Positions 5,102 to 52,510 of a stretch of DNA of 64,000 nt are shown piece by piece. Within the stretch, counting starts at the first letter, position 1. Each line of letters starts with the position of its first letter. Made by a program: the position numbers and the translations under genes. Under the pieces are notes generated by a model. That model searched no databases. It was not told the DNA's origin and saw nothing but the letters and a program-made list of their open reading frames with translations. This DNA comes from Candidatus Wolfebacteria bacterium (GTDB lineage Bacteria; Patescibacteriota; Minisyncoccia; UBA6257; UBA9933): positions 101,639-165,638 of the forward strand of contig JANLIR010000002.1 of NCBI GenBank assembly GCA_024654025.1, given 5' to 3'.

Positions 5102-5114
5102 AATAATGATACAA

Positions 5115-5144
5115 ATATACTAATTTTACTAATGATACGAATGG
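5115..5144. repeat. MITE-like repeat, left arm (atatactaattttactaatgatacgaatgg); further copies at 28414-28443 and 15317-15341
   Basis: Near-identical 25-30-mers at three loci. Confidence 0.7.
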
Positions 5145-5557
5145 GATACGAATTCATTCCTGTTAATCGTATCAATCTTAATAATTCTTTTGGGTTTTAA
5201 ATATTTGTCCCTAAAGTTTATAAGCACCCCCAACCTTAAATTTAAGGCTTGTAAATAACGTTGAGTTTGATAATAATCTTCTTTAGTTAAAATGCGCTTA
5301 GCCTTAAATTCAAGAATAAGTTTATCATCTATTAAAAAATCAACCACATTACCACTGTCACCTAAACGTAATTCTTTTTTGTAAGGAATTTTAATTTCTT
5401 TTAATTTACGCTCAAATTCATCAGAATATTGTTTTTCCTTTGCAAACCTCCCCAAATCGTTATGAACAGCAAAACAAATACCAGTAATAACATAAGAAAT
5501 TTCGGGATAAATTATCTTATTTTTATTATTCGTATTATTAGTATCATTCGTTCTCAT
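5129..5557 (-). CDS. GxxExxY family protein (PD-(D/E)xK-like); both termini encoded by repeat arms
   Basis: Pattern E.sY..tG.cF.VHN.LG..F.E..Y...L..EL...GI......E...V.DFLID.KLILEFKAK matches the GxxExxY family; flanked by the MITE arms. Confidence 0.55.
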   Translation of the reverse strand: MRTNDTNNTNNKNKIIYPEISYVITGICFAVHNDLGRFAKEKQYSDEFERKLKEIKIPYKKELRLGDSGNVVDFLIDDKLILEFKAKRILTKEDYYQTQRYLQALNLRLGVLINFRDKYLKPKRIIKIDTINRNEFVSHSYH

Positions 5558-5573
5558 TCGTATATTGGTATCA
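5528..5573. repeat. MITE-like repeat, right arm (attcgtattattagtatcattcg...cgtatattggtatca); further copy at 28460-28488
   Basis: Imperfect inverted match to the left arm; shared with the 28.4 kb locus. Confidence 0.65.
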
Positions 5574-5578
5574 ATTTA

Positions 5579-6955
5579 TTATTCAACGATTTTTCTAAGG
5601 TCAATAACGTCTTCTTCAACCGGAATGTCTTTTAATTGTAATTCATCCGGCGATTTAGCTGCCGTTTTTTGTTCGGGCTTTTGTTCGATTTTAAACATTT
5701 GTTTTCGGGCATCTTCAAAAGCTTTTTTCTCCGCCGCTGCTTTTATGCTTAATCCAAACTCCGGTCTTGGAGCTGAAAAACCAATTTTTGCGCCGTTATC
5801 GATCTTTATCGAACTTTGCTCAACTAAAGGAACTTGTATTCTTTTCTCTTCTGTAATTCTTTCCGTTTGGAAAGTTTCCATTTTTTTGTCATTCGTTTCA
5901 TTAGCATGCATTCGTCCTTCGGTCTGCTCAGGACGACCTCCTCGAGTCTGAGTCTCGGAGTCGAAGACCTGAGCTTGCCGAATGGGTCGTATATTGGTAT
6001 CGCGTTGTTCTTTTTTCTCTTCCATTTTTACCACTTTAGGCTCGAAACCAATATTAATTTCTTTGCTTTGAGAAAAAACCTGAGACTGAAAAGGCTTTTC
6101 TTTTCCAAAAGGAGACATCGGCGTATTTAAATCGCTATAATGAACTACTCTGACATTTGGTTTCTCCATTTGTATCTTGTTTTCCTTTTTCTTTTCCACG
6201 TCAGCGCCAAAACTTATTTTTGCCGCCAAATCTGATGATTCTTTTCTTGCCGCCGGCTCTTGTCCGGAAGAAAAAGTAAACACTTCAGCCAAAGATTTTT
6301 TATCCGCCGCAAGCGGTGTTAATTCTGTTTCCTTATGTAAAATCATCGGCGCTTCTTCTTCGCCAAGTGATTTTTCCAAAGTTATTCCGCTGACCTTCGG
6401 CTCGATTTTTCCGAAAACCGTCGGTTCTTCTTTTTTAATTTCCTGTCTAAATTCCGGTTTTTTCAACACTACCGCTTCTGGAAATATTTCTTTCGACTTT
6501 ATCTCAATTGTTTCGCTTGAAATTCCAAGAGCTGATTTTGTTTTTAAATCAACAACGTCTTCTTTTGTTGCGGGCTTTAATTCAATTTTAGGCGCTCCCC
6601 AAGACAATGCCGATTTTGAAACAACCAACGGACTGTAAATTTTTTTAATTTCGTCTTTTAACGATATGAAAATCTTTTTATCAATCTCTTGATAAATCGA
6701 ATCAGCTAATTGTTTATTGACCTCCAGATTTTCGGCGATTTCTTTGCTCATATCTTCAATCGCCACAAATCCGGACAAAACCAAAGCGGTTAACTGCTCA
6801 ATAGTTAAAGTTTTTTCATCATCAAAATAATGAGATTGGCAAATATGCCGGACAGTTCCCATTACGCTCTCTGAATTAAGAGCGTTTTTTAAAATACTCG
6901 GCAAGTCATAAACGCGTTTTTGAAATTGTTGTTCGGTGATTAAAAAGTAGTCCAT
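5579..6955 (-). CDS. Hypothetical protein: ~100-aa structured N-terminus, then a long Lys/Glu-rich disordered region containing an in-frame 95-bp repeat module
   Basis: Low-complexity K/E/P-rich sequence; segment IRPIRQAQVFDSETQTRGGRPEQTEGRM is encoded by the repeat at 5909-6002. Confidence 0.4.
   Translation of the reverse strand: MDYFLITEQQFQKRVYDLPSILKNALNSESVMGTVRHICQSHYFDDEKTLTIEQLTALVLSGFVAIEDMSKEIAENLEVNKQLADSIYQEIDKKIFISLKDEIKKIYSPLVVSKSALSWGAPKIELKPATKEDVVDLKTKSALGISSETIEIKSKEIFPEAVVLKKPEFRQEIKKEEPTVFGKIEPKVSGITLEKSLGEEEAPMILHKETELTPLAADKKSLAEVFTFSSGQEPAARKESSDLAAKISFGADVEKKKENKIQMEKPNVRVVHYSDLNTPMSPFGKEKPFQSQVFSQSKEINIGFEPKVVKMEEKKEQRDTNIRPIRQAQVFDSETQTRGGRPEQTEGRMHANETNDKKMETFQTERITEEKRIQVPLVEQSSIKIDNGAKIGFSAPRPEFGLSIKAAAEKKAFEDARKQMFKIEQKPEQKTAAKSPDELQLKDIPVEEDVIDLRKIVE
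5890..6002. repeat. 95-bp GC-rich repeat module (cattcgtccttcggtctgctcaggacgacc...gaatgggtcgtatattggtatcg) inside a CDS; inverted copy at 25498-25613; truncated copy at 28488-28553
   Basis: ~94/95 identity between the 5909-6002 copy and the reverse complement of 25498-25591. Confidence 0.8.
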
Positions 6956-6961
6956 AAAAAT

Positions 6962-8593
6962 TTATTTATTTTCATCTTTTTTTTCTTCTTTTTTAGGTGT
7001 CTCATCTTTTCCGACAGCTAACCATTTCATTTCTTTGTGCAATTTCCCATCAGTTAATTGAAGACCCATGTTCTTACAAGGCAAAACCGGCTCTTTAGTT
7101 GATTTTACAACCGCACCGCAAACACTACATGTCCATTCACTTGATTTCTTTTTACCAACAAATAATCCACTTCCTTTCTTCATTCCGTCAATAATTGACT
7201 TAGAAAGGTTATCGGGCTTGTATTCTTCGGCTCGTTTAAAAGTTTTTCCCGCCTTGCCAACTCTTCCCGCAAACCATTGGCTCACCTTCCCCCCTCCTTT
7301 CAAACGCTCTTCCAATCCGGCCGCCTTATCTGACAGACCAGCTCTTCTGAGCGCCCATCCTCCAGTTTTTAAAGGCAGCTTCTTACCCCAAGCCCCAACC
7401 CCTTTCATTAATCCTTCAGCTGCTCCAAACGCCGCTTTCGATCCGACTGTTCCCAATTTACTGGACAAAATCAACCCTCCCATCAAAATACCCAGTATCA
7501 TTACCAATTGAGAAATATAACCCACATCTATAGTAATAGGTTGATTGCTTAAGTTCTTCGGCGCGTATTGGGAAAATACATTTTGATTCGCGTCAGCGTT
7601 AATCACATAAATAGTCAGGTATAAAAAGAACAAAACCATCGGCGCGAAAATCAACCAATGAAGCAATTTTTTCCACCACCATTTCCACCATTGCGCGGTT
7701 GAGGGAAATATCCACGCCAGCCAAATAACCGGCGAAAGAATCAAAAGAAATGTTAAATAAATGTATCTTATTAAAAGCATTCCTGCCAAGCCCAAAAAAG
7801 TAAGCGCGGCTAAAATAGTAAAGAGCGCGATAAATAAAAGAGTGGCTATTCCTTTCAGGGCTGTGCCAAATGGGTTGGCGCTAGGAGTATCGGCAACAAA
7901 GGCCTTCGTTTCCTCGTCGCTTTTAAAAATTATTCCCATATCGCCGCTTACTCGGCTACTATCAATAACCTCCGAACTTGACGCAACCGCTGTAGAACTT
8001 GTTGTCTGCGGATTTTGTGACTGTACCTGAGCCTTAATCCGGCTAAGCTCCTGGCCCGAAAGCATAAACTGGGGGTTTATCACGGCGGCAAGTTTTGTTG
8101 AAAGGCCAACCTGTGAAGTTCCTTGAATTTTTCCTATAAAAAAATTAGTTAGCCCGTCGGAAGCTTCTATAAAAAATCCGGCAATAGCCAAACTGAAATT
8201 AACAAGTAACGCCGCCACTATTAATTTCCACAGAGTTTTTTTCATCCCGTAACTTTGTAATCCCACAATGGTGGCGAAAGCGATTACGATAATCGCCAGC
8301 ACAAATCCCAAATTGGTAAAATTCAAAACTATGCTCCAGCCGGTTTTAATAAACGGATTGTCCAAAAGATGCATATTCACCGCCAAAGCGAAATCCAAAA
8401 AAACTCCGCCGATATAAAAAACTACTTGAGCGATAAAACCCAAAACATAAGAAATAACCAGAACAATTCCGGATATTGCCGCGTTTGTAATGCCTCCTAT
8501 AAGATCTCCCACCAGTCCGGCGTTAGCCCAAAGAGGCATCGCTGACAAAATCGAAGACAACGCAAAAATTTTTTTAAATAACTTTTTTCTCAT
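6962..8593 (-). CDS. VirB6/TrbL-like polytopic membrane protein of the T4SS
   Basis: At least 8 predicted TM helices, Trp-rich loop WWKWWWKKLLHW, C-terminal Cys motif CSVCG...C; operon position. Confidence 0.5.
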   Translation of the reverse strand: MRKKLFKKIFALSSILSAMPLWANAGLVGDLIGGITNAAISGIVLVISYVLGFIAQVVFYIGGVFLDFALAVNMHLLDNPFIKTGWSIVLNFTNLGFVLAIIVIAFATIVGLQSYGMKKTLWKLIVAALLVNFSLAIAGFFIEASDGLTNFFIGKIQGTSQVGLSTKLAAVINPQFMLSGQELSRIKAQVQSQNPQTTSSTAVASSSEVIDSSRVSGDMGIIFKSDEETKAFVADTPSANPFGTALKGIATLLFIALFTILAALTFLGLAGMLLIRYIYLTFLLILSPVIWLAWIFPSTAQWWKWWWKKLLHWLIFAPMVLFFLYLTIYVINADANQNVFSQYAPKNLSNQPITIDVGYISQLVMILGILMGGLILSSKLGTVGSKAAFGAAEGLMKGVGAWGKKLPLKTGGWALRRAGLSDKAAGLEERLKGGGKVSQWFAGRVGKAGKTFKRAEEYKPDNLSKSIIDGMKKGSGLFVGKKKSSEWTCSVCGAVVKSTKEPVLPCKNMGLQLTDGKLHKEMKWLAVGKDETPKKEEKKDENK

Positions 8594-11019: not shown

Positions 11020-11874
11020 TTAAAACAACGTGGATAAGTGCTTTATTTGCTCAAGAGACAAATTTTGCGGCCTATCCTGTGGGTTTATGCCAAACATCTG
11101 AAATTTTCCAATGATTTCTTCTTTTTTTAATTGAATTTTCTTATTCGTATAATTAGTATGCATTAGTATATTAGCATCGCGAAGATTATTTATTATCGTC
11201 TTTCTCGGCTGTTTAAATAAAACTTTTACAAATTTGTAGTATTTTTCCGCTTCTTCTGTTGTAAATTGTTGGCCTGCCCCGTAGGAAGCTTGCTTTCCTT
11301 CGGGGTTGTAAGTTGTTAGTCGGATTATCGCGCTGTCAACTTTTGGTATCGGCCTAAAATCATTTTTTGAAATATATTCTATTATTTTTGGTTCAGTCCA
11401 AAATTGCGTGATTGCCGCCAACAAATTCATTTGAGGTGGTTTTGCGCAAATTCTTTGCGCCACTTCTTTTTGAATTGTTAAAACTATCAGTAACGGTTTA
11501 TTTTCCAGTTCTGATAAAATCCTTAGCAAACTACCGGTTATATAATAAGGAATATTGCCTGTCAGCTTATAGTTATTAGTTGTTAGTTTAGAGTTATAAG
11601 TTAAATCCGTAAGGATTTTCAGCGCATCGCCCTCAATAATTTCAATATTATTGTTGTCTTTGAATTTTTCCCTCAAGCCATTCGCTAGTATTTTATCTTT
11701 CTCAATAGCAATTATTCTATTTTCTAATTTATTATTTCTAATTTCTGTTGTTAGCTCTCCGTGTCCCGGCCCAATTTCAACAACAACATCTCCTTTTTTT
11801 AATTCCAAGGCCTCAACAATTTTCTGTATTTTGTTTTTATTAACTAAAAAATGCTGACCTAATTTTCTTGACAT
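11020..11874 (-). CDS. rsmA: 16S rRNA (adenine1518/1519-N6)-dimethyltransferase
   Basis: N-terminal LGQHFL motif and SAM motif VVEIGPGHGELT. Confidence 0.85.
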   Translation of the reverse strand: MSRKLGQHFLVNKNKIQKIVEALELKKGDVVVEIGPGHGELTTEIRNNKLENRIIAIEKDKILANGLREKFKDNNNIEIIEGDALKILTDLTYNSKLTTNNYKLTGNIPYYITGSLLRILSELENKPLLIVLTIQKEVAQRICAKPPQMNLLAAITQFWTEPKIIEYISKNDFRPIPKVDSAIIRLTTYNPEGKQASYGAGQQFTTEEAEKYYKFVKVLFKQPRKTIINNLRDANILMHTNYTNKKIQLKKEEIIGKFQMFGINPQDRPQNLSLEQIKHLSTLF

Positions 11875-15304: not shown

Positions 15305-15352
15305 AATTTAGCTATAAATACTAATTTTACTAATATACGAATTTAACACAAA

Positions 15353-25155: not shown

Positions 25156-25452
25156 TTAAGCGTTTTCTTCCTGTCCCATTCCTCGAGTCGAACCCTCCGG
25201 CTCAACTATCTTAAGATTAACGCGAGCGTTATTTTTAATACCAACGATTCTAAGCAAAGATCGAATAGCTTTTGCCGTCGCGCCTTGTCTCCCCACAACT
25301 GTTCCCATATCAGTCGAGTCAACTTTCAATGTAAGAAGAACTCCCATCTCATCGATCTTTCTTTCAACTTGCACTACTTCAGGTTTGCCCACAATTGCTT
25401 TTACAACGAATTCCAGAAAATCTTTATCTCTAAATTCCATATCAGTTTTCAA
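25156..25452 (-). CDS. khpA: KH-domain RNA-binding protein (KhpA/YlqC-like)
   Basis: VVGRQGATAKAIRSLL is a GXXG-containing KH motif; lies downstream of rpsP as in many bacteria. Confidence 0.6.
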   Translation of the reverse strand: MKTDMEFRDKDFLEFVVKAIVGKPEVVQVERKIDEMGVLLTLKVDSTDMGTVVGRQGATAKAIRSLLRIVGIKNNARVNLKIVEPEGSTRGMGQEENA

Positions 25453-25497
25453 TACCCTTTGCTTTATTCAATTCGACCTTTCTTCGCTTACGCTACA

Positions 25498-25613
25498 CGA
25501 TGCCAATATACGACCCATTCGGCAAGCTCAGGTCTTCGACTCCGAGACTCAGACTCGAGGAGGTCGTCCTGAGCAGACCGAAGGACGAATGACATGCGAA
25601 TGATACGAATAAT
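25498..25613. repeat. Inverted copy of the 95-bp module plus arm fragment, in the KH-gene upstream region
   Basis: see 5890-6002. Confidence 0.8.
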
Positions 25614-28390: not shown

Positions 28391-28413
28391 ATCACTTCGC
28401 TAATATGATACCA

Positions 28414-28553
28414 ATATACTAATTTTACTAATGATACGAATGGATACTAATTTTATTATATTCGTATTTATTAGTATCATTCGAATGCATTCGTCCTTCG
28501 ACTTACTCAGGACGACCCTGAGTCGGTCGAATGGGTCGTAGATTTGTATCACG
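28414..28553. repeat. Compact complete element (left arm + right arm + truncated module) filling the smc-rnc spacer
   Basis: seen in sequence. Confidence 0.7.
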
Positions 28554-30030: not shown

Positions 30031-30115
30031 AGTTTAGTAATTATTAGTAATTAGTTGATTAGTGATTAGTAAGATATTAAATATAGACCCAAAAGTCAAT
30101 AAAATCAGGATAAAA

Positions 30116-51299: not shown

Positions 51300-52510
51300 T
51301 ACTTGCGTGAACGTTTTCTTGATTGATAGCTGGAGGGGCATATTATTCCCGGAATCAGCGGGGAGTGGTAGGGAACGCGGGGGCCGGAACGAACCAGGAT
51401 GCCCCAGGTGTAATAGGGGGCAGCCGGTATAGACCAGGAGCACCACTTTTCAACAGGGCAGTGGCTACACGGGTCCTTATAGCCGGCGGACCACAGGGCG
51501 TGGTTCTGGCGCAGGTCTTCCGCCTCGGTGAAGCGCATAGCCTCTTTTGCTTTACGGAAGGGGCGCATATGGGAAACAGTCTTTGGTTTGGCTTCTTCGC
51601 TGACGGGCACCAGTGAGCTTTCCGGTTTCTGGGCGAAGGTGATGTTCTGAAATTGCTCCGCGCAAAGATCTCGTGAAAGTAGCCATAGAGCCGGGTTGAT
51701 TACTAAGTGGCTCATACCGTGCTTCAGGAGAAAATTCTGTGACCATTTGGCGATGGTGTCCATAAATTTCTCGCTTACCCGCATGGTCATTTTTCCTTTG
51801 AGGACCGGGCTGTGCAGGCCTTCCCTGGGCTCGAATGGTTTAGCGAAACCAATAAGCTGAAGGATTTCGGTTTCCCAGAGGACCCTCATTGCGTGAAAGT
51901 CCACAGGGATGGGGCCGGGGAAAATCGGGATGAAGTTTTTTTCCTGCAACCAGATTACCAACAAGGAAAAAATCTTGCGCCGCATGCCTTTGAAGCCGGC
52001 CGGGTTGTTATGATAGTCCACCCGGCGGAAGGACTCTTCAAATTCCGTGACGCCCCAGAAGACATTGCGGATGTCGTCGCCCCAATGTTCGTGGAGCGTG
52101 ACCGCGTTGCGGTGCCAGGAGGCGGTGTGTTCTTTGAGCTTGTAGCTTAGAGAGCCAGCGCCGACCTCGCCGGTACCGTTACCGTTGAGGATTTTAGGCG
52201 CGACTGCCATGAATGCGTTCTCTATCTTGCTTGGAGTCCAGTAGTTAGCAACGATTTTCGGGTTGTAGAGCTCGGGCAGATCCTGGTGGAGTTGCCAAAG
52301 GAATTTCATGGTGTCGCCGCTTACAATTCCGCCTCTTTCGAACAGCGATAGGAAGAAGAGCCAGTTCGCGTACTCGCGCTTGCCTACCTCAGGGACGAAT
52401 CTGTCCTGAGGCAGGATGAAGTCAGAGTAAATTCCCGTCCTTTCCTTGTACGGTTTTTCGAGCGCTTTAAATACCGCGAGCGCTCGCTCTTCGTCAAACT
52501 TGAGCTTCAT
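51299..52510 (-). CDS. Hypothetical protein of the higher-GC island (403 aa) with C-terminal Cys-x2-Cys-x5-Cys cluster
   Basis: Perfect SD aaggagg 8 nt before the ATG; GC ~52%; DPCSHCPVEKWCSW; no family recognised. Confidence 0.4.
   Translation of the reverse strand: MKLKFDEERALAVFKALEKPYKERTGIYSDFILPQDRFVPEVGKREYANWLFFLSLFERGGIVSGDTMKFLWQLHQDLPELYNPKIVANYWTPSKIENAFMAVAPKILNGNGTGEVGAGSLSYKLKEHTASWHRNAVTLHEHWGDDIRNVFWGVTEFEESFRRVDYHNNPAGFKGMRRKIFSLLVIWLQEKNFIPIFPGPIPVDFHAMRVLWETEILQLIGFAKPFEPREGLHSPVLKGKMTMRVSEKFMDTIAKWSQNFLLKHGMSHLVINPALWLLSRDLCAEQFQNITFAQKPESSLVPVSEEAKPKTVSHMRPFRKAKEAMRFTEAEDLRQNHALWSAGYKDPCSHCPVEKWCSWSIPAAPYYTWGILVRSGPRVPYHSPLIPGIICPSSYQSRKRSRK

What the first reader, a model, noticed from the sequence alone, without database searches (positions are those of the whole stretch)
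5890..6002. 95-bp structured repeat present as an inverted pair ~19.5 kb apart and translated in-frame within two ORFs
The copy at 5909-6002 and the reverse complement of 25498-25591 are near-identical. Each contains internal hairpins (tcgtcc...ggacga; gagtctgagtctcggagtc). In the 458-aa Lys/Glu-rich protein (5579-6955) the module is read in frame, giving ...IRPIRQAQVFDSETQTRGGRPEQTEGRM.... The same peptide appears in a 72-aa ORF at 25385-25603. This is either a REP/MITE that tolerates in-frame insertion into a disordered linker, or a sequence exchanged between loci. The inverted pair brackets the whole region from the T4SS operon to khpA and could mediate inversion. A truncated third copy is at 28488-28553.
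Basis: seen in the sequence. Interest (0 to 1): 0.55.

Follow-up and report, generated by a model that had tools for sequence, protein, structure and literature searches.

The report
Nested mobile hairpin repeat in Wolfebacteria
The repeat is a small GC-rich fold-back DNA module that has recently been copied into a fixed spot of an AT-rich carrier repeat at three places in a Candidatus Wolfebacteria genome, once in frame inside a disordered protein region; this kind of selfish palindromic repeat is known, though its hairpin unit is unusually widespread across bacterial phyla.

Summary
Copies at 5909-6005 (+) and 25495-25591 (-) match at 95 of 97 nt, and a shorter copy lies at 28488-28553.

The repeat is a nested mosaic. 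A 45-nt module (75 nt in copies A and B) made of two or three hairpin units sits at one fixed position, TACGA|AT, of a heptamer-rich carrier. The carrier resembles the terminal inverted repeat of a neighbouring PDDEXK_3 (GxxExxY) gene cassette.

Evidence for recent gain or loss:
- A strain 99.2-99.7% identical over 11.1 kb differs by a single indel, exactly the 45-nt module.
- Orthologues of the 458-aa protein lack the insert.
- Other orthologues carry an empty carrier, or a module, in frame at other sites of the same gene.
- The host segment is predicted to be disordered.

The 72-aa ORF is most likely spurious. Gene order across 2-32 kb matches relatives, so no inversion is seen.

The hairpin unit has a conserved loop, TGAGCYTGTCGAA, and covarying stems. 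It occurs in many phyla and has no Rfam match.

The best reading is a REP/REPIN/MITE-like selfish repeat that tolerates in-frame insertion, as Rickettsia palindromic elements do. The enzyme that moves it is unknown.

The parts
5912..5990 (+). Copy A hairpin module: a 75-nt insert bounded by TCGT on both sides, GC 0.59. It is read in frame by the 458-aa ORF on the minus strand.
   Evidence: absent from orthologous DNA in L119, L121 and L122
5891..5911 (+). Copy A carrier, heptamer side (ATTCGTTTCATTAGCATGCAT; translated as HANETND on the minus strand).
   Evidence: the same carrier without a module lies in frame at another site of the gene in L121/L122
5991..6007 (+). Copy A carrier, terminal side (reverse complement CAACGCGATACCAATAT; translated as QRDTNI).
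5579..6955 (-). Host gene: 458-aa hypothetical protein NUV83_00570 of Candidatus Wolfebacteria. It has a folded N-terminal helical domain of about 110 aa followed by a long low-confidence tail; the insert is residues 317-356.
25510..25588 (-). Copy B hairpin module, identical to the copy A module, in the rpsP-khpA spacer.
   Evidence: present in the 99% strain L124, absent from L125 and L126
25493..25614 (-). Copy B as a whole (carrier plus module). GATGCCAATATACGA lies at 25499-25513 on the plus strand.
28491..28539 (+). Copy C hairpin module: a 45-nt insert bounded by TCGT on both sides, the basic two-hairpin form.
   Evidence: it is exactly the single indel between the window and L124 over 11.1 kb
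28407..28550 (+). Gene-less, MITE-like carrier (two inverted heptamer-rich ends) that fills most of the rnc-smc spacer and hosts copy C.
   Evidence: (family D5)
5107..5573 (-). PDDEXK_3 (GxxExxY-type) gene cassette, ORF 5129-5557. Its ends (5107-5124 and 5556-5573, 18 nt, 89% complementary) have the carrier sequence, with an unoccupied TACGA|ATG site at the 5' end. The cassette is absent between the same genes in L121 and L122.
25385..25603 (+). 72-aa ORF containing the same peptide; judged spurious.

Best explanation
The repeat is a nested, non-autonomous palindromic repeat, and I found no evidence that it serves the host.

Its core is a GC-rich fold-back module of 45 nt, or 75 nt in copies A and B. 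The module is made of two or three copies, in alternating orientation, of a hairpin unit with a conserved 13-nt loop (TGAGCYTGTCGAA or its complement) and covarying stems. The module sits at one fixed position (GATACCAATATACGA|AT) of an AT-rich, heptamer-based carrier. That carrier is also the terminal inverted repeat of a PDDEXK_3 gene cassette and of gene-less, MITE-like derivatives of it.

Shown:
- Modules and carriers are gained or lost on the time scale of strain divergence.
- They land in spacers inside core operons.
- They also land in frame in a disordered protein segment, where four open frames let them be read through.

Inferred: the module moves as a single-stranded DNA hairpin by site-specific cut-and-join next to the tetranucleotide ACGA. 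This would resemble REP/REPIN or IS200/IS605 'peel and paste' mobilisation by an enzyme supplied in trans, which has not been identified.
For: - Three copies against 0 expected by chance.
- 89 identical nt in copies A and B, while their carrier flanks have diverged.
- The window and L124 are 99.2-99.7% identical over 11.1 kb, and the only indel is the 45-nt module, flanked by ACGA on both sides. The empty site reads ...AAATCTACGA|ATGCATTCG....
- L125, whose SMC is 93% identical, is filled at the same site with a module 44/45 identical although the flanks have diverged.
- Six orthologues of the 458-aa protein lack the insert. P0003 has a related module at another site, and L121/L122 have an empty carrier in frame at a third site.
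- All 5 filled carriers have the module after TACGA, and 0 of 5 TACTA carriers are filled.
- Module GC is 0.57-0.59 against 0.389 for the window.
- The fold-back is more stable than shuffles as DNA or RNA for copy C, z -2.7 to -4.0.
- Stem covariation of the unit across phyla: 66% of cells paired against 48% in shuffles and 37% when slid; 344 double changes against 172.
- Elements also lie between rpoB-rpoC and between rpoA-rplQ in other low-GC contigs that carry the same carrier repeat.
- The insert lies in a segment with pLDDT below 50.
Against: - No transposase or HUH enzyme was found among the window ORFs scanned, and no protein family is consistently next to the hairpins in about 240 loci.
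- The polarity of the L124 difference (insertion or precise loss) is not resolved. Loss could be slippage between the 4-nt repeats at the base of a hairpin.
- Copy A is not a clean insertion. About 66 nt of the orthologous sequence is replaced by about 150 nt.
- Only three copies are visible, because only 64 kb of the genome is available.
Confidence: 0.7

Rival explanations
1. The module spreads by homologous recombination or gene conversion between carriers, in a homing-like way, and not by transposition. A filled carrier would serve as template for an empty one, using the 20-25 nt of carrier sequence on each side. The PDDEXK_3 nuclease encoded between two carrier ends might stimulate this by cutting empty carriers.
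For: - Modules are found only inside carriers in this lineage and always at the same position.
- Carrier homology flanks copies A and B.
- The PDDEXK_3 ORF starts exactly at the unoccupied TACGA|ATG site and is bounded by carrier ends.
- The cassette is itself present or absent between the same genes in relatives.
- No transposase was found.
Against: - The homology arms are very short and diverged.
- The same module occurs in many other phyla without heptamer carriers and without PDDEXK_3 neighbours, so this cannot be the general mechanism.
- Nuclease activity and specificity of this protein family are untested.
Confidence: 0.2
2. The hairpin is a functional cis-acting RNA or DNA signal (terminator, mRNA stabiliser, RNase III processing site or protein-binding site) kept by selection in the host.
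For: - The fold is stable, and stems covary around a conserved loop across phyla.
- G-T wobbles are commoner on the TGAG strand.
- Copies B and C lie between co-transcribed genes.
- REPs are reported to have such side effects (PMC3733652).
Against: - A 99% identical strain lacks copy C and relatives lack copy B, with no other change.
- Copies occur in both orientations relative to transcription, and one lies inside a coding region.
- No T tract follows the hairpins and no terminator-like call falls on them.
- They sit between rpoB and rpoC, which argues against termination.
- There is no Rfam match, even at E up to 10.
Confidence: 0.08
3. The inverted pair A/B is a substrate for, or part of, a programmed inversion of the 19.5-kb segment between the copies.
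For: 89 identical nt in inverted orientation, enough in principle for RecA-mediated recombination.
Against: - Gene order and orientation on both sides of A and of B match relatives that lack one or both copies.
- L124 is colinear across copy B.
- An inversion would split the 458-aa gene and reverse genes that are co-oriented with replication from the nearby dnaA/dnaN region.
- No recombinase gene was found nearby.
Confidence: 0.02

Closest known systems
Rickettsia palindromic elements (RPE)
   Same: Short palindromic repeats that insert in frame into unrelated protein-coding genes and are translated as extra peptide segments in tolerant regions; intergenic copies also exist (PMC10969869; PMC3733652).
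   Different: The sequence is unrelated and the host phylum differs (Patescibacteria). The module is much shorter (45-75 nt against about 100-150 nt), it is nested in a second repeat, and its hairpin unit is shared across many phyla and is not confined to one genus.
REP / REPIN / BIME (repetitive extragenic palindromes, REP doublets, mosaic elements)
   Same: - A short imperfect hairpin unit, with pairs of units in inverted orientation that fold into a larger hairpin.
- Mosaic arrangement with other repeats, and occasional intragenic copies.
- REP dimers nested inside longer palindromic 'target' sequences have been described in Anabaena variabilis and Halothiobacillus neapolitanus.
- The CGTC-type REPs also lack a dedicated transposase (PMC3733652; PMC3116915).
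   Different: - There is no conserved GTAG or CGTC tag outside the stem.
- The loop is 13 nt and is the conserved part, whereas in REPs the stem and tag are conserved and most loops are 2-5 nt.
- No RAYT was found.
- The same loop, and even the same stems, occur in contigs of 38-70% GC, whereas REPIN-RAYT systems are described as lineage-specific and vertically inherited.
[quoted passage not shown]
   Same: The carrier in the rnc-smc spacer is a gene-less element of about 144 nt. Its two ends match the terminal inverted repeats of a larger gene-carrying cassette.
   Different: The parent cassette encodes a PD-(D/E)XK-family protein (PDDEXK_3), which is not a recognised transposase. Target-site duplications are not established. 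Solo ends also occur.
IS200/IS605 family and its miniature derivatives (PATEs)
   Same: - Hairpins at both ends in place of terminal inverted repeats.
- Insertion next to a specific tetranucleotide.
- Seamless presence/absence, consistent with single-strand 'peel and paste' (PMC6006769 for the family's properties).
   Different: No TnpA/Y1 gene was found. The module is far smaller than known derivatives. ACGA lies on both sides and forms part of the stems.

Membership tests
REP (GTAG- or CGTC-tagged repetitive extragenic palindromes) | Short palindrome (stem 5-13 bp) with a conserved unpaired GTAG or CGTC tag at one end | tested here: not met
   The hairpin is present, but no conserved tag lies outside the stem. 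GTAG appears only next to copy C through carrier variation (TCGTAGATT) and is GTAT in copies A and B. The conserved part is the 13-nt loop.
REPIN-RAYT system | Two REPs in inverted orientation that form one long hairpin | tested here: met
   The two units of copy C fold into one hairpin as DNA and as RNA, z -2.7 to -4.0.
REPIN-RAYT system | A single-copy RAYT (Y1 HUH transposase) gene in the genome, usually flanked by the REPs | tested here: inconclusive
   None was found among the 30 window ORFs scanned with Pfam, and none recurs next to the hairpins in about 240 loci. Only 64 kb of a 248.7-kb contig, itself only part of the genome, is available.
MITE | Terminal inverted repeats shared with a larger parent element | tested here: met
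   Positions 5107-5124 and 5556-5573 are 89% complementary. The same ends bound the gene-less element 28407-28550.
MITE | Target-site duplication, and a parent element that encodes a transposase | tested here: not met
   The parent cassette encodes only a PDDEXK_3 protein. No clear duplication is visible at the cassette borders when compared with L121 and L122.
Rickettsia palindromic elements | Membership of one of the RPE sequence families of Rickettsia | not tested
   No RPE sequence was held, so none was compared. The host is a Candidatus Wolfebacteria MAG. Only the behaviour is shared (in-frame insertion).
IS200/IS605-derived miniature elements | Subterminal hairpins, insertion 3' of a fixed tetranucleotide, no target duplication, seamless excision | tested here: inconclusive
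   There are hairpins at both ends, a fixed site TACGA|AT (5 of 5 filled carriers) and one seamless filled/empty pair. ACGA on both sides could equally be a 4-nt duplication, and no TnpA was found.
Any Rfam RNA family | Match to a curated covariance model | tested here: not met
   Only two tRNAs match in the window at gathering score. Nothing matches at E up to 10 around copy B. Nothing matches at the hairpins in 8 loci from other phyla at E up to 1.
Intrinsic terminator | GC-rich hairpin followed by a T run | tested here: not met
   No terminator-like site is called at copies B or C. Elements occur between rpoB-rpoC and between rpoA-rplQ.

The most novel reading that the evidence does not exclude
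The hairpin unit (loop TGAGCYTGTCGAA, covarying stems) and its 45-nt two-hairpin module form a so far undescribed, cross-phylum family of miniature mobile DNA. It would move between very different genomes, from 38 to 70% GC and from Patescibacteria to Proteobacteria, Chloroflexi, Planctomycetes and Omnitrophota, and insert seamlessly without a linked transposase. The agent would be an unknown or universally available single-strand DNA mechanism. In Wolfebacteria it has specialised on the terminal repeat of a PDDEXK_3 nuclease cassette, which may itself be a new kind of mobile gene.
Probability: 0.2. Interest if true: 0.75.

Novelty: new variant of a known kind. Interest (0 to 1): 0.5.

Why it matters
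- **Reduced genomes.** Even a very small, streamlined Patescibacteria genome carries repeat DNA that turned over recently. Such repeats can add peptide segments to proteins (the 458-aa protein, RNase III in a relative, probably KsgA) and sit inside core operons without obvious harm.
- **Strain marker.** The filled/empty pair between 99% identical groundwater strains marks strain-level dynamics.
- **Annotation.** The repeat explains spurious ORFs such as the 72-aa one.
- **Open question.** The hairpin unit is shared across phyla, has no Rfam match, and was not found by sequence or peptide in the open literature searched. If it is mobile without a linked transposase, it bears on how REP-like elements that lack a dedicated enzyme (as reported for CGTC REPs) spread.

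Tried and rejected
- **Rfam.** The whole window at gathering score, copy B at E up to 10, and eight loci from other phyla at E up to 1 gave nothing at the hairpins.
- **Literature.** Searches by loop sequence and by the typical translated peptides gave no relevant paper. 'GxxExxY' gave only incidental mentions.
- **Protein search with the 43-aa insert peptide.** The tool found no candidate sharing enough words with the query, so the search was wasted.
- **Association with PDDEXK_3 outside this lineage.** phmmer against ORFs of all fetched loci found only L119 and one weak hit, so the hairpin is not generally linked to that gene.
- **Guilt by association.** Clustering ORFs within 1.5 kb of hairpins in about 240 loci found no recurrent transposase. 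Only small GIY-YIG ORFs recurred, in 4 loci.
- **Target consensus.** No clear target consensus appears around modules in other phyla.
- **Module in other collections.** The two-hairpin module is absent from the plasmid and phage collections at E below 1e-3 and gave only 2 chance-like hits in viral contigs.
- **Other RNA and repeat classes.** A hammerhead or other ribozyme and CRISPR-like arrays were considered and rejected. There is no core motif match, no Rfam hit, and no spacer structure in the tandem arrays.
- **DNA uptake sequence.** This was rejected on copy density: three copies in 64 kb.

Full report
**1. The observation**

The two arms 5909-6005 (+) and 25495-25591 (-) are 97 nt long and 98% complementary. 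They are identical over 89 consecutive nt, and weaker similarity extends to about 117 nt. A shorter relative lies at 28488-28553. The core motif CATTCGTCCTTCGN5CTCAGGACGACC occurs three times in the window against 0.00 expected from shuffles.

The 458-aa ORF 5579-6955 (-) reads copy A in frame at residues 317-356. The 72-aa ORF 25385-25603 also exists. Four of the six frames of the element are open.

**2. Context**

- The 458-aa protein is hypothetical protein NUV83_00570 of a Candidatus Wolfebacteria MAG.
- Neighbouring genes are PrgI-like, TraC/VirB4-like, a PDDEXK_3 protein, KhpA, ribosomal protein S16, SMC and RNase III.
- dnaA and dnaN lie at 40.5-43.1 kb. Almost all genes from 1 to 48 kb are on the minus strand, and GC skew is consistently negative there.

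**3. Anatomy: a repeat inside a repeat**

Aligning the three window copies with two copies from a relative shows a conserved core: (C/A/T)ATTCGTCC-TTCGnnnnnCTCA-GGACGACC-CTGAGnnnnnCGAA-yGGGTCGT. This core is two overlapping hairpins whose 13-nt loops are reverse complements of each other. Copies A and B carry an extra 30-nt central segment that looks like a third, degenerate unit.

The core is GC-rich, 0.57-0.59 against 0.389 for the window. As single-stranded DNA or RNA, the two units of copy C fold into one long hairpin more stable than shuffles, with z between -2.7 and -4.0. Between copies A/B and copy C the stem changes UUCGGU/GCCGAA to UUCGAC/GUCGAA, which preserves pairing.

The core is always embedded in an AT-rich carrier built of TACGAAT/TACTAAT heptamers. 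It directly follows GATACCAATATACGA and is followed by ATGCAT...GAATGATACGAAT.

The same carrier sequence forms both ends of the PDDEXK_3 gene cassette at 5107-5573. The terminal 18 nt are 89% complementary, with weaker pairing further in. It also forms both ends of a gene-less element of about 144 nt that fills the rnc-smc spacer (family D5, 59, 60).

The PDDEXK_3 ORF starts exactly at the unoccupied TACGA|ATG junction.

**4. Evidence for recent gain and loss**

*rnc-smc spacer.* L124 comes from a Hainich groundwater strain whose SMC is 99% identical. It aligns with the window over 11.1 kb at 99.2-99.7% identity. The only indel is the 45-nt module, ACGACCCATTCGACCGACTCAGGGTCGTCCTGAGTAAGTCGAAGG. 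The empty site reads ...AAATCTACGA|ATGCATTCG..., so ACGA flanks the insert on both sides.

L125 (SMC 93% identical) is filled at the same site. Its module is 44/45 identical although the flanks have diverged, and there the RNase III ORF reads through the module (262 aa against 228 aa). L126 and L127 lack the carrier altogether.

*rpsP-khpA spacer.* The window and L124 are filled. L125 and L126 have short spacers without carrier or module.

*The 458-aa gene.*
- Six of seven orthologues lack the insert at this site.
- At DNA level, about 66 nt of the orthologous sequence is replaced by about 150 nt of carrier plus module.
- P0003 carries a two-hairpin module (RPVRQDQGRPEQVEGR) at a different site.
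- L121 and L122 carry an empty carrier (QRDANIRIHANDTN) in frame at a third site.

*The PDDEXK_3 cassette.* It is present in the window and L119 and absent between the same genes in L121 and L122.

*All held carriers.* All five filled carriers have TACGA at the junction. Three TACGA carriers are empty, and none of five TACTA carriers is filled.

In other low-GC contigs that carry the same carrier repeat, an element with a module lies between rpoB and rpoC (L144) and between rpoA and rplQ (L168).

**5. Why the protein tolerates it**

AlphaFold on the eight-sequence alignment gives a confident helical domain for roughly residues 10-110. It gives pLDDT below 50 and no secondary structure for 112-265 and 279-404, which include the insert. 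The orthologue alignment is full of indels in this part. The alignment has only 8 sequences, so low confidence there is suggestive of disorder and not proof.

**6. The hairpin unit is not confined to this lineage**

*Distribution.*
The hosts span Alpha-, Beta-, Gamma- and Deltaproteobacteria, Planctomycetes, Chloroflexi, Omnitrophota, Acidobacteria, Fibrobacteres, Eremiobacterota, Peribacteria, Daviesbacteria and others.
- Uniform base composition predicts fewer than one hit (my estimate from 4^21 and the collection size).
- The central junction CTCAGGGTCGTCCTGAG hit at least 120 metagenome contigs.
- 44 distinct complete two-hairpin modules with the same stems come from contigs of 38-70% GC.

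*Structure.*
- In the genome loci, the loop TGAG-N5-CGAA is about 20 times commoner than in shuffles, 312 against 15, and most occurrences have stems of 6 bp or more.
- I took 150 loop-anchored sequences that exclude the searched stem. In these, 66% of stem cells pair, against 48% in shuffles and 32-41% when the partner is slid. There are 344 double-sided changes against 172.
- Stems fall into a few related types: TTCGTGG/CCAYGAA, CTCATGC/GCATGAG, TTCGCCC/GGGTGAA and TTCGTCC/GGACGAA.
- G-T wobbles are commoner on the TGAG strand. Subfamily founder effects could produce this.

*Cultured hosts and known families.*
- The single hairpin also occurs, unannotated, on megaplasmids of cultured Comamonas and on plasmids of Moraxella. 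It is therefore not an artefact of MAG assembly.
- No Rfam family matches.
- Searches of the open literature by sequence or peptide found nothing.
- No protein family is consistently adjacent. Only small GIY-YIG ORFs recur, in 4 loci.

**7. How it most likely works**

*Shown.* The module is a discrete unit. It is present or absent seamlessly at one defined position of a carrier. It is better conserved than its surroundings and differs from its host in composition.

*Inferred.* It is copied as a DNA hairpin by a site-specific single-strand mechanism next to ACGA, as in REP/REPIN-RAYT or IS200/IS605 systems. These systems are known for hairpin recognition, tetranucleotide targeting and seamless excision (PMC6006769, PMC3116915). 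The enzyme has not been found.

*Main rival.* Gene conversion between carriers, possibly triggered by the PDDEXK_3 nuclease. This fits the strict carrier dependence in this lineage. It does not fit the carrier-free copies in other phyla.

*A host function as terminator or processing site is unlikely.*
- Close relatives lack copies with no other change.
- Copies occur in both orientations relative to transcription.
- No T tract follows the hairpins.
- Some copies sit between rpoB and rpoC.

**8. Inversion**

Gene order and orientation from about 2 to 32 kb match relatives that lack copy A, copy B or both. L124 is colinear across copy B. An inversion would split the 458-aa gene and reverse about 19.5 kb of genes that are co-oriented with replication. 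It is possible in principle, but nothing supports it.

**9. Comparison with known systems**

The behaviour matches Rickettsia palindromic elements, which insert in frame (PMC10969869). It also matches REP/REPIN/BIME repeats, which show inverted dimers, mosaic nesting in palindromic targets, intragenic units, and families without a dedicated transposase (PMC3733652).

It is not a member of those families as they are defined:
- there is no GTAG or CGTC tag;
- the loop, not the stem or a tag, is the conserved part;
- the same unit is spread across phyla.

I therefore class it as a new variant of a known kind.

**10. Limits**

- Only 64 kb of one MAG is available.
- The polarity of each gain or loss is not resolved.
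- The mobilising enzyme is unknown.

Noticed in passing
window 5107-5573: A PDDEXK_3 (GxxExxY-type) gene is bounded by about 18-45 nt of imperfect inverted heptamer-rich ends. It is present in the window and L119 but absent between the same two genes in L121 and L122. This looks like a small mobile gene cassette whose only product is a PD-(D/E)XK-family protein.
   Followed up: partly
window 11143-11178 (inside ORF 11020-11874, minus strand): A solo carrier (GATGCTAATATACTAATGCATACTAATTATACGAAT) lies in frame in the C-terminal part of the KsgA/RrnaAD-like protein, translated as RDANILMHTNYTNK. Orthologues differ in length at exactly this place.
   Followed up: partly
L125 3653-4441: In a relative, the RNase III ORF is 262 aa (228 aa in the window) because it reads through the hairpin module as ...YDPFDRLRVVLSKSKDE.... 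This is a second case of the module being translated, in a different frame.
   Followed up: partly
L122 5243-6100: The KsgA orthologue of L122 has a different insertion of about 28 aa (GIKAGSLNSHGRVRIAEGRRPKARYSHA) in the middle of the enzyme. It may be another repeat family.
   Followed up: no
L006 2425-4140 (Omnitrophica): A long ORF (572 aa), which I read from its sequence as NAD synthetase-like (not scanned with Pfam), contains PSTSSFDRLRTTLSLSNGS. This is the two-hairpin module translated in frame in another phylum.
   Followed up: no
L086 about 6700-7650; also L038, L016, L200: Long tandem arrays of the hairpin unit (period about 44 nt in L086) without unique spacers.
   Followed up: no
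L086 1213-1620 and three other loci: Small ORFs that look like GIY-YIG nucleases by sequence (not scanned with Pfam) lie next to hairpin units. They were the only gene family that recurred near the hairpins (4 of about 240 loci).
   Followed up: no
window 50000-52000: GC content is 0.48 against about 0.38 elsewhere. Two ORFs here (50131-51153 and 51299-52510) have no Pfam match.
   Followed up: no
window 40523-43114 and about 46-48 kb: dnaN and dnaA are present, and cumulative GC skew reaches its minimum near 46-48 kb, so the window probably contains the replication origin.
   Followed up: no
window 15319-15342 and 30043-30071: Further small clusters of TACTAAT/TACGAAT-type heptamers lie in or near intergenic spacers.
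   Followed up: no
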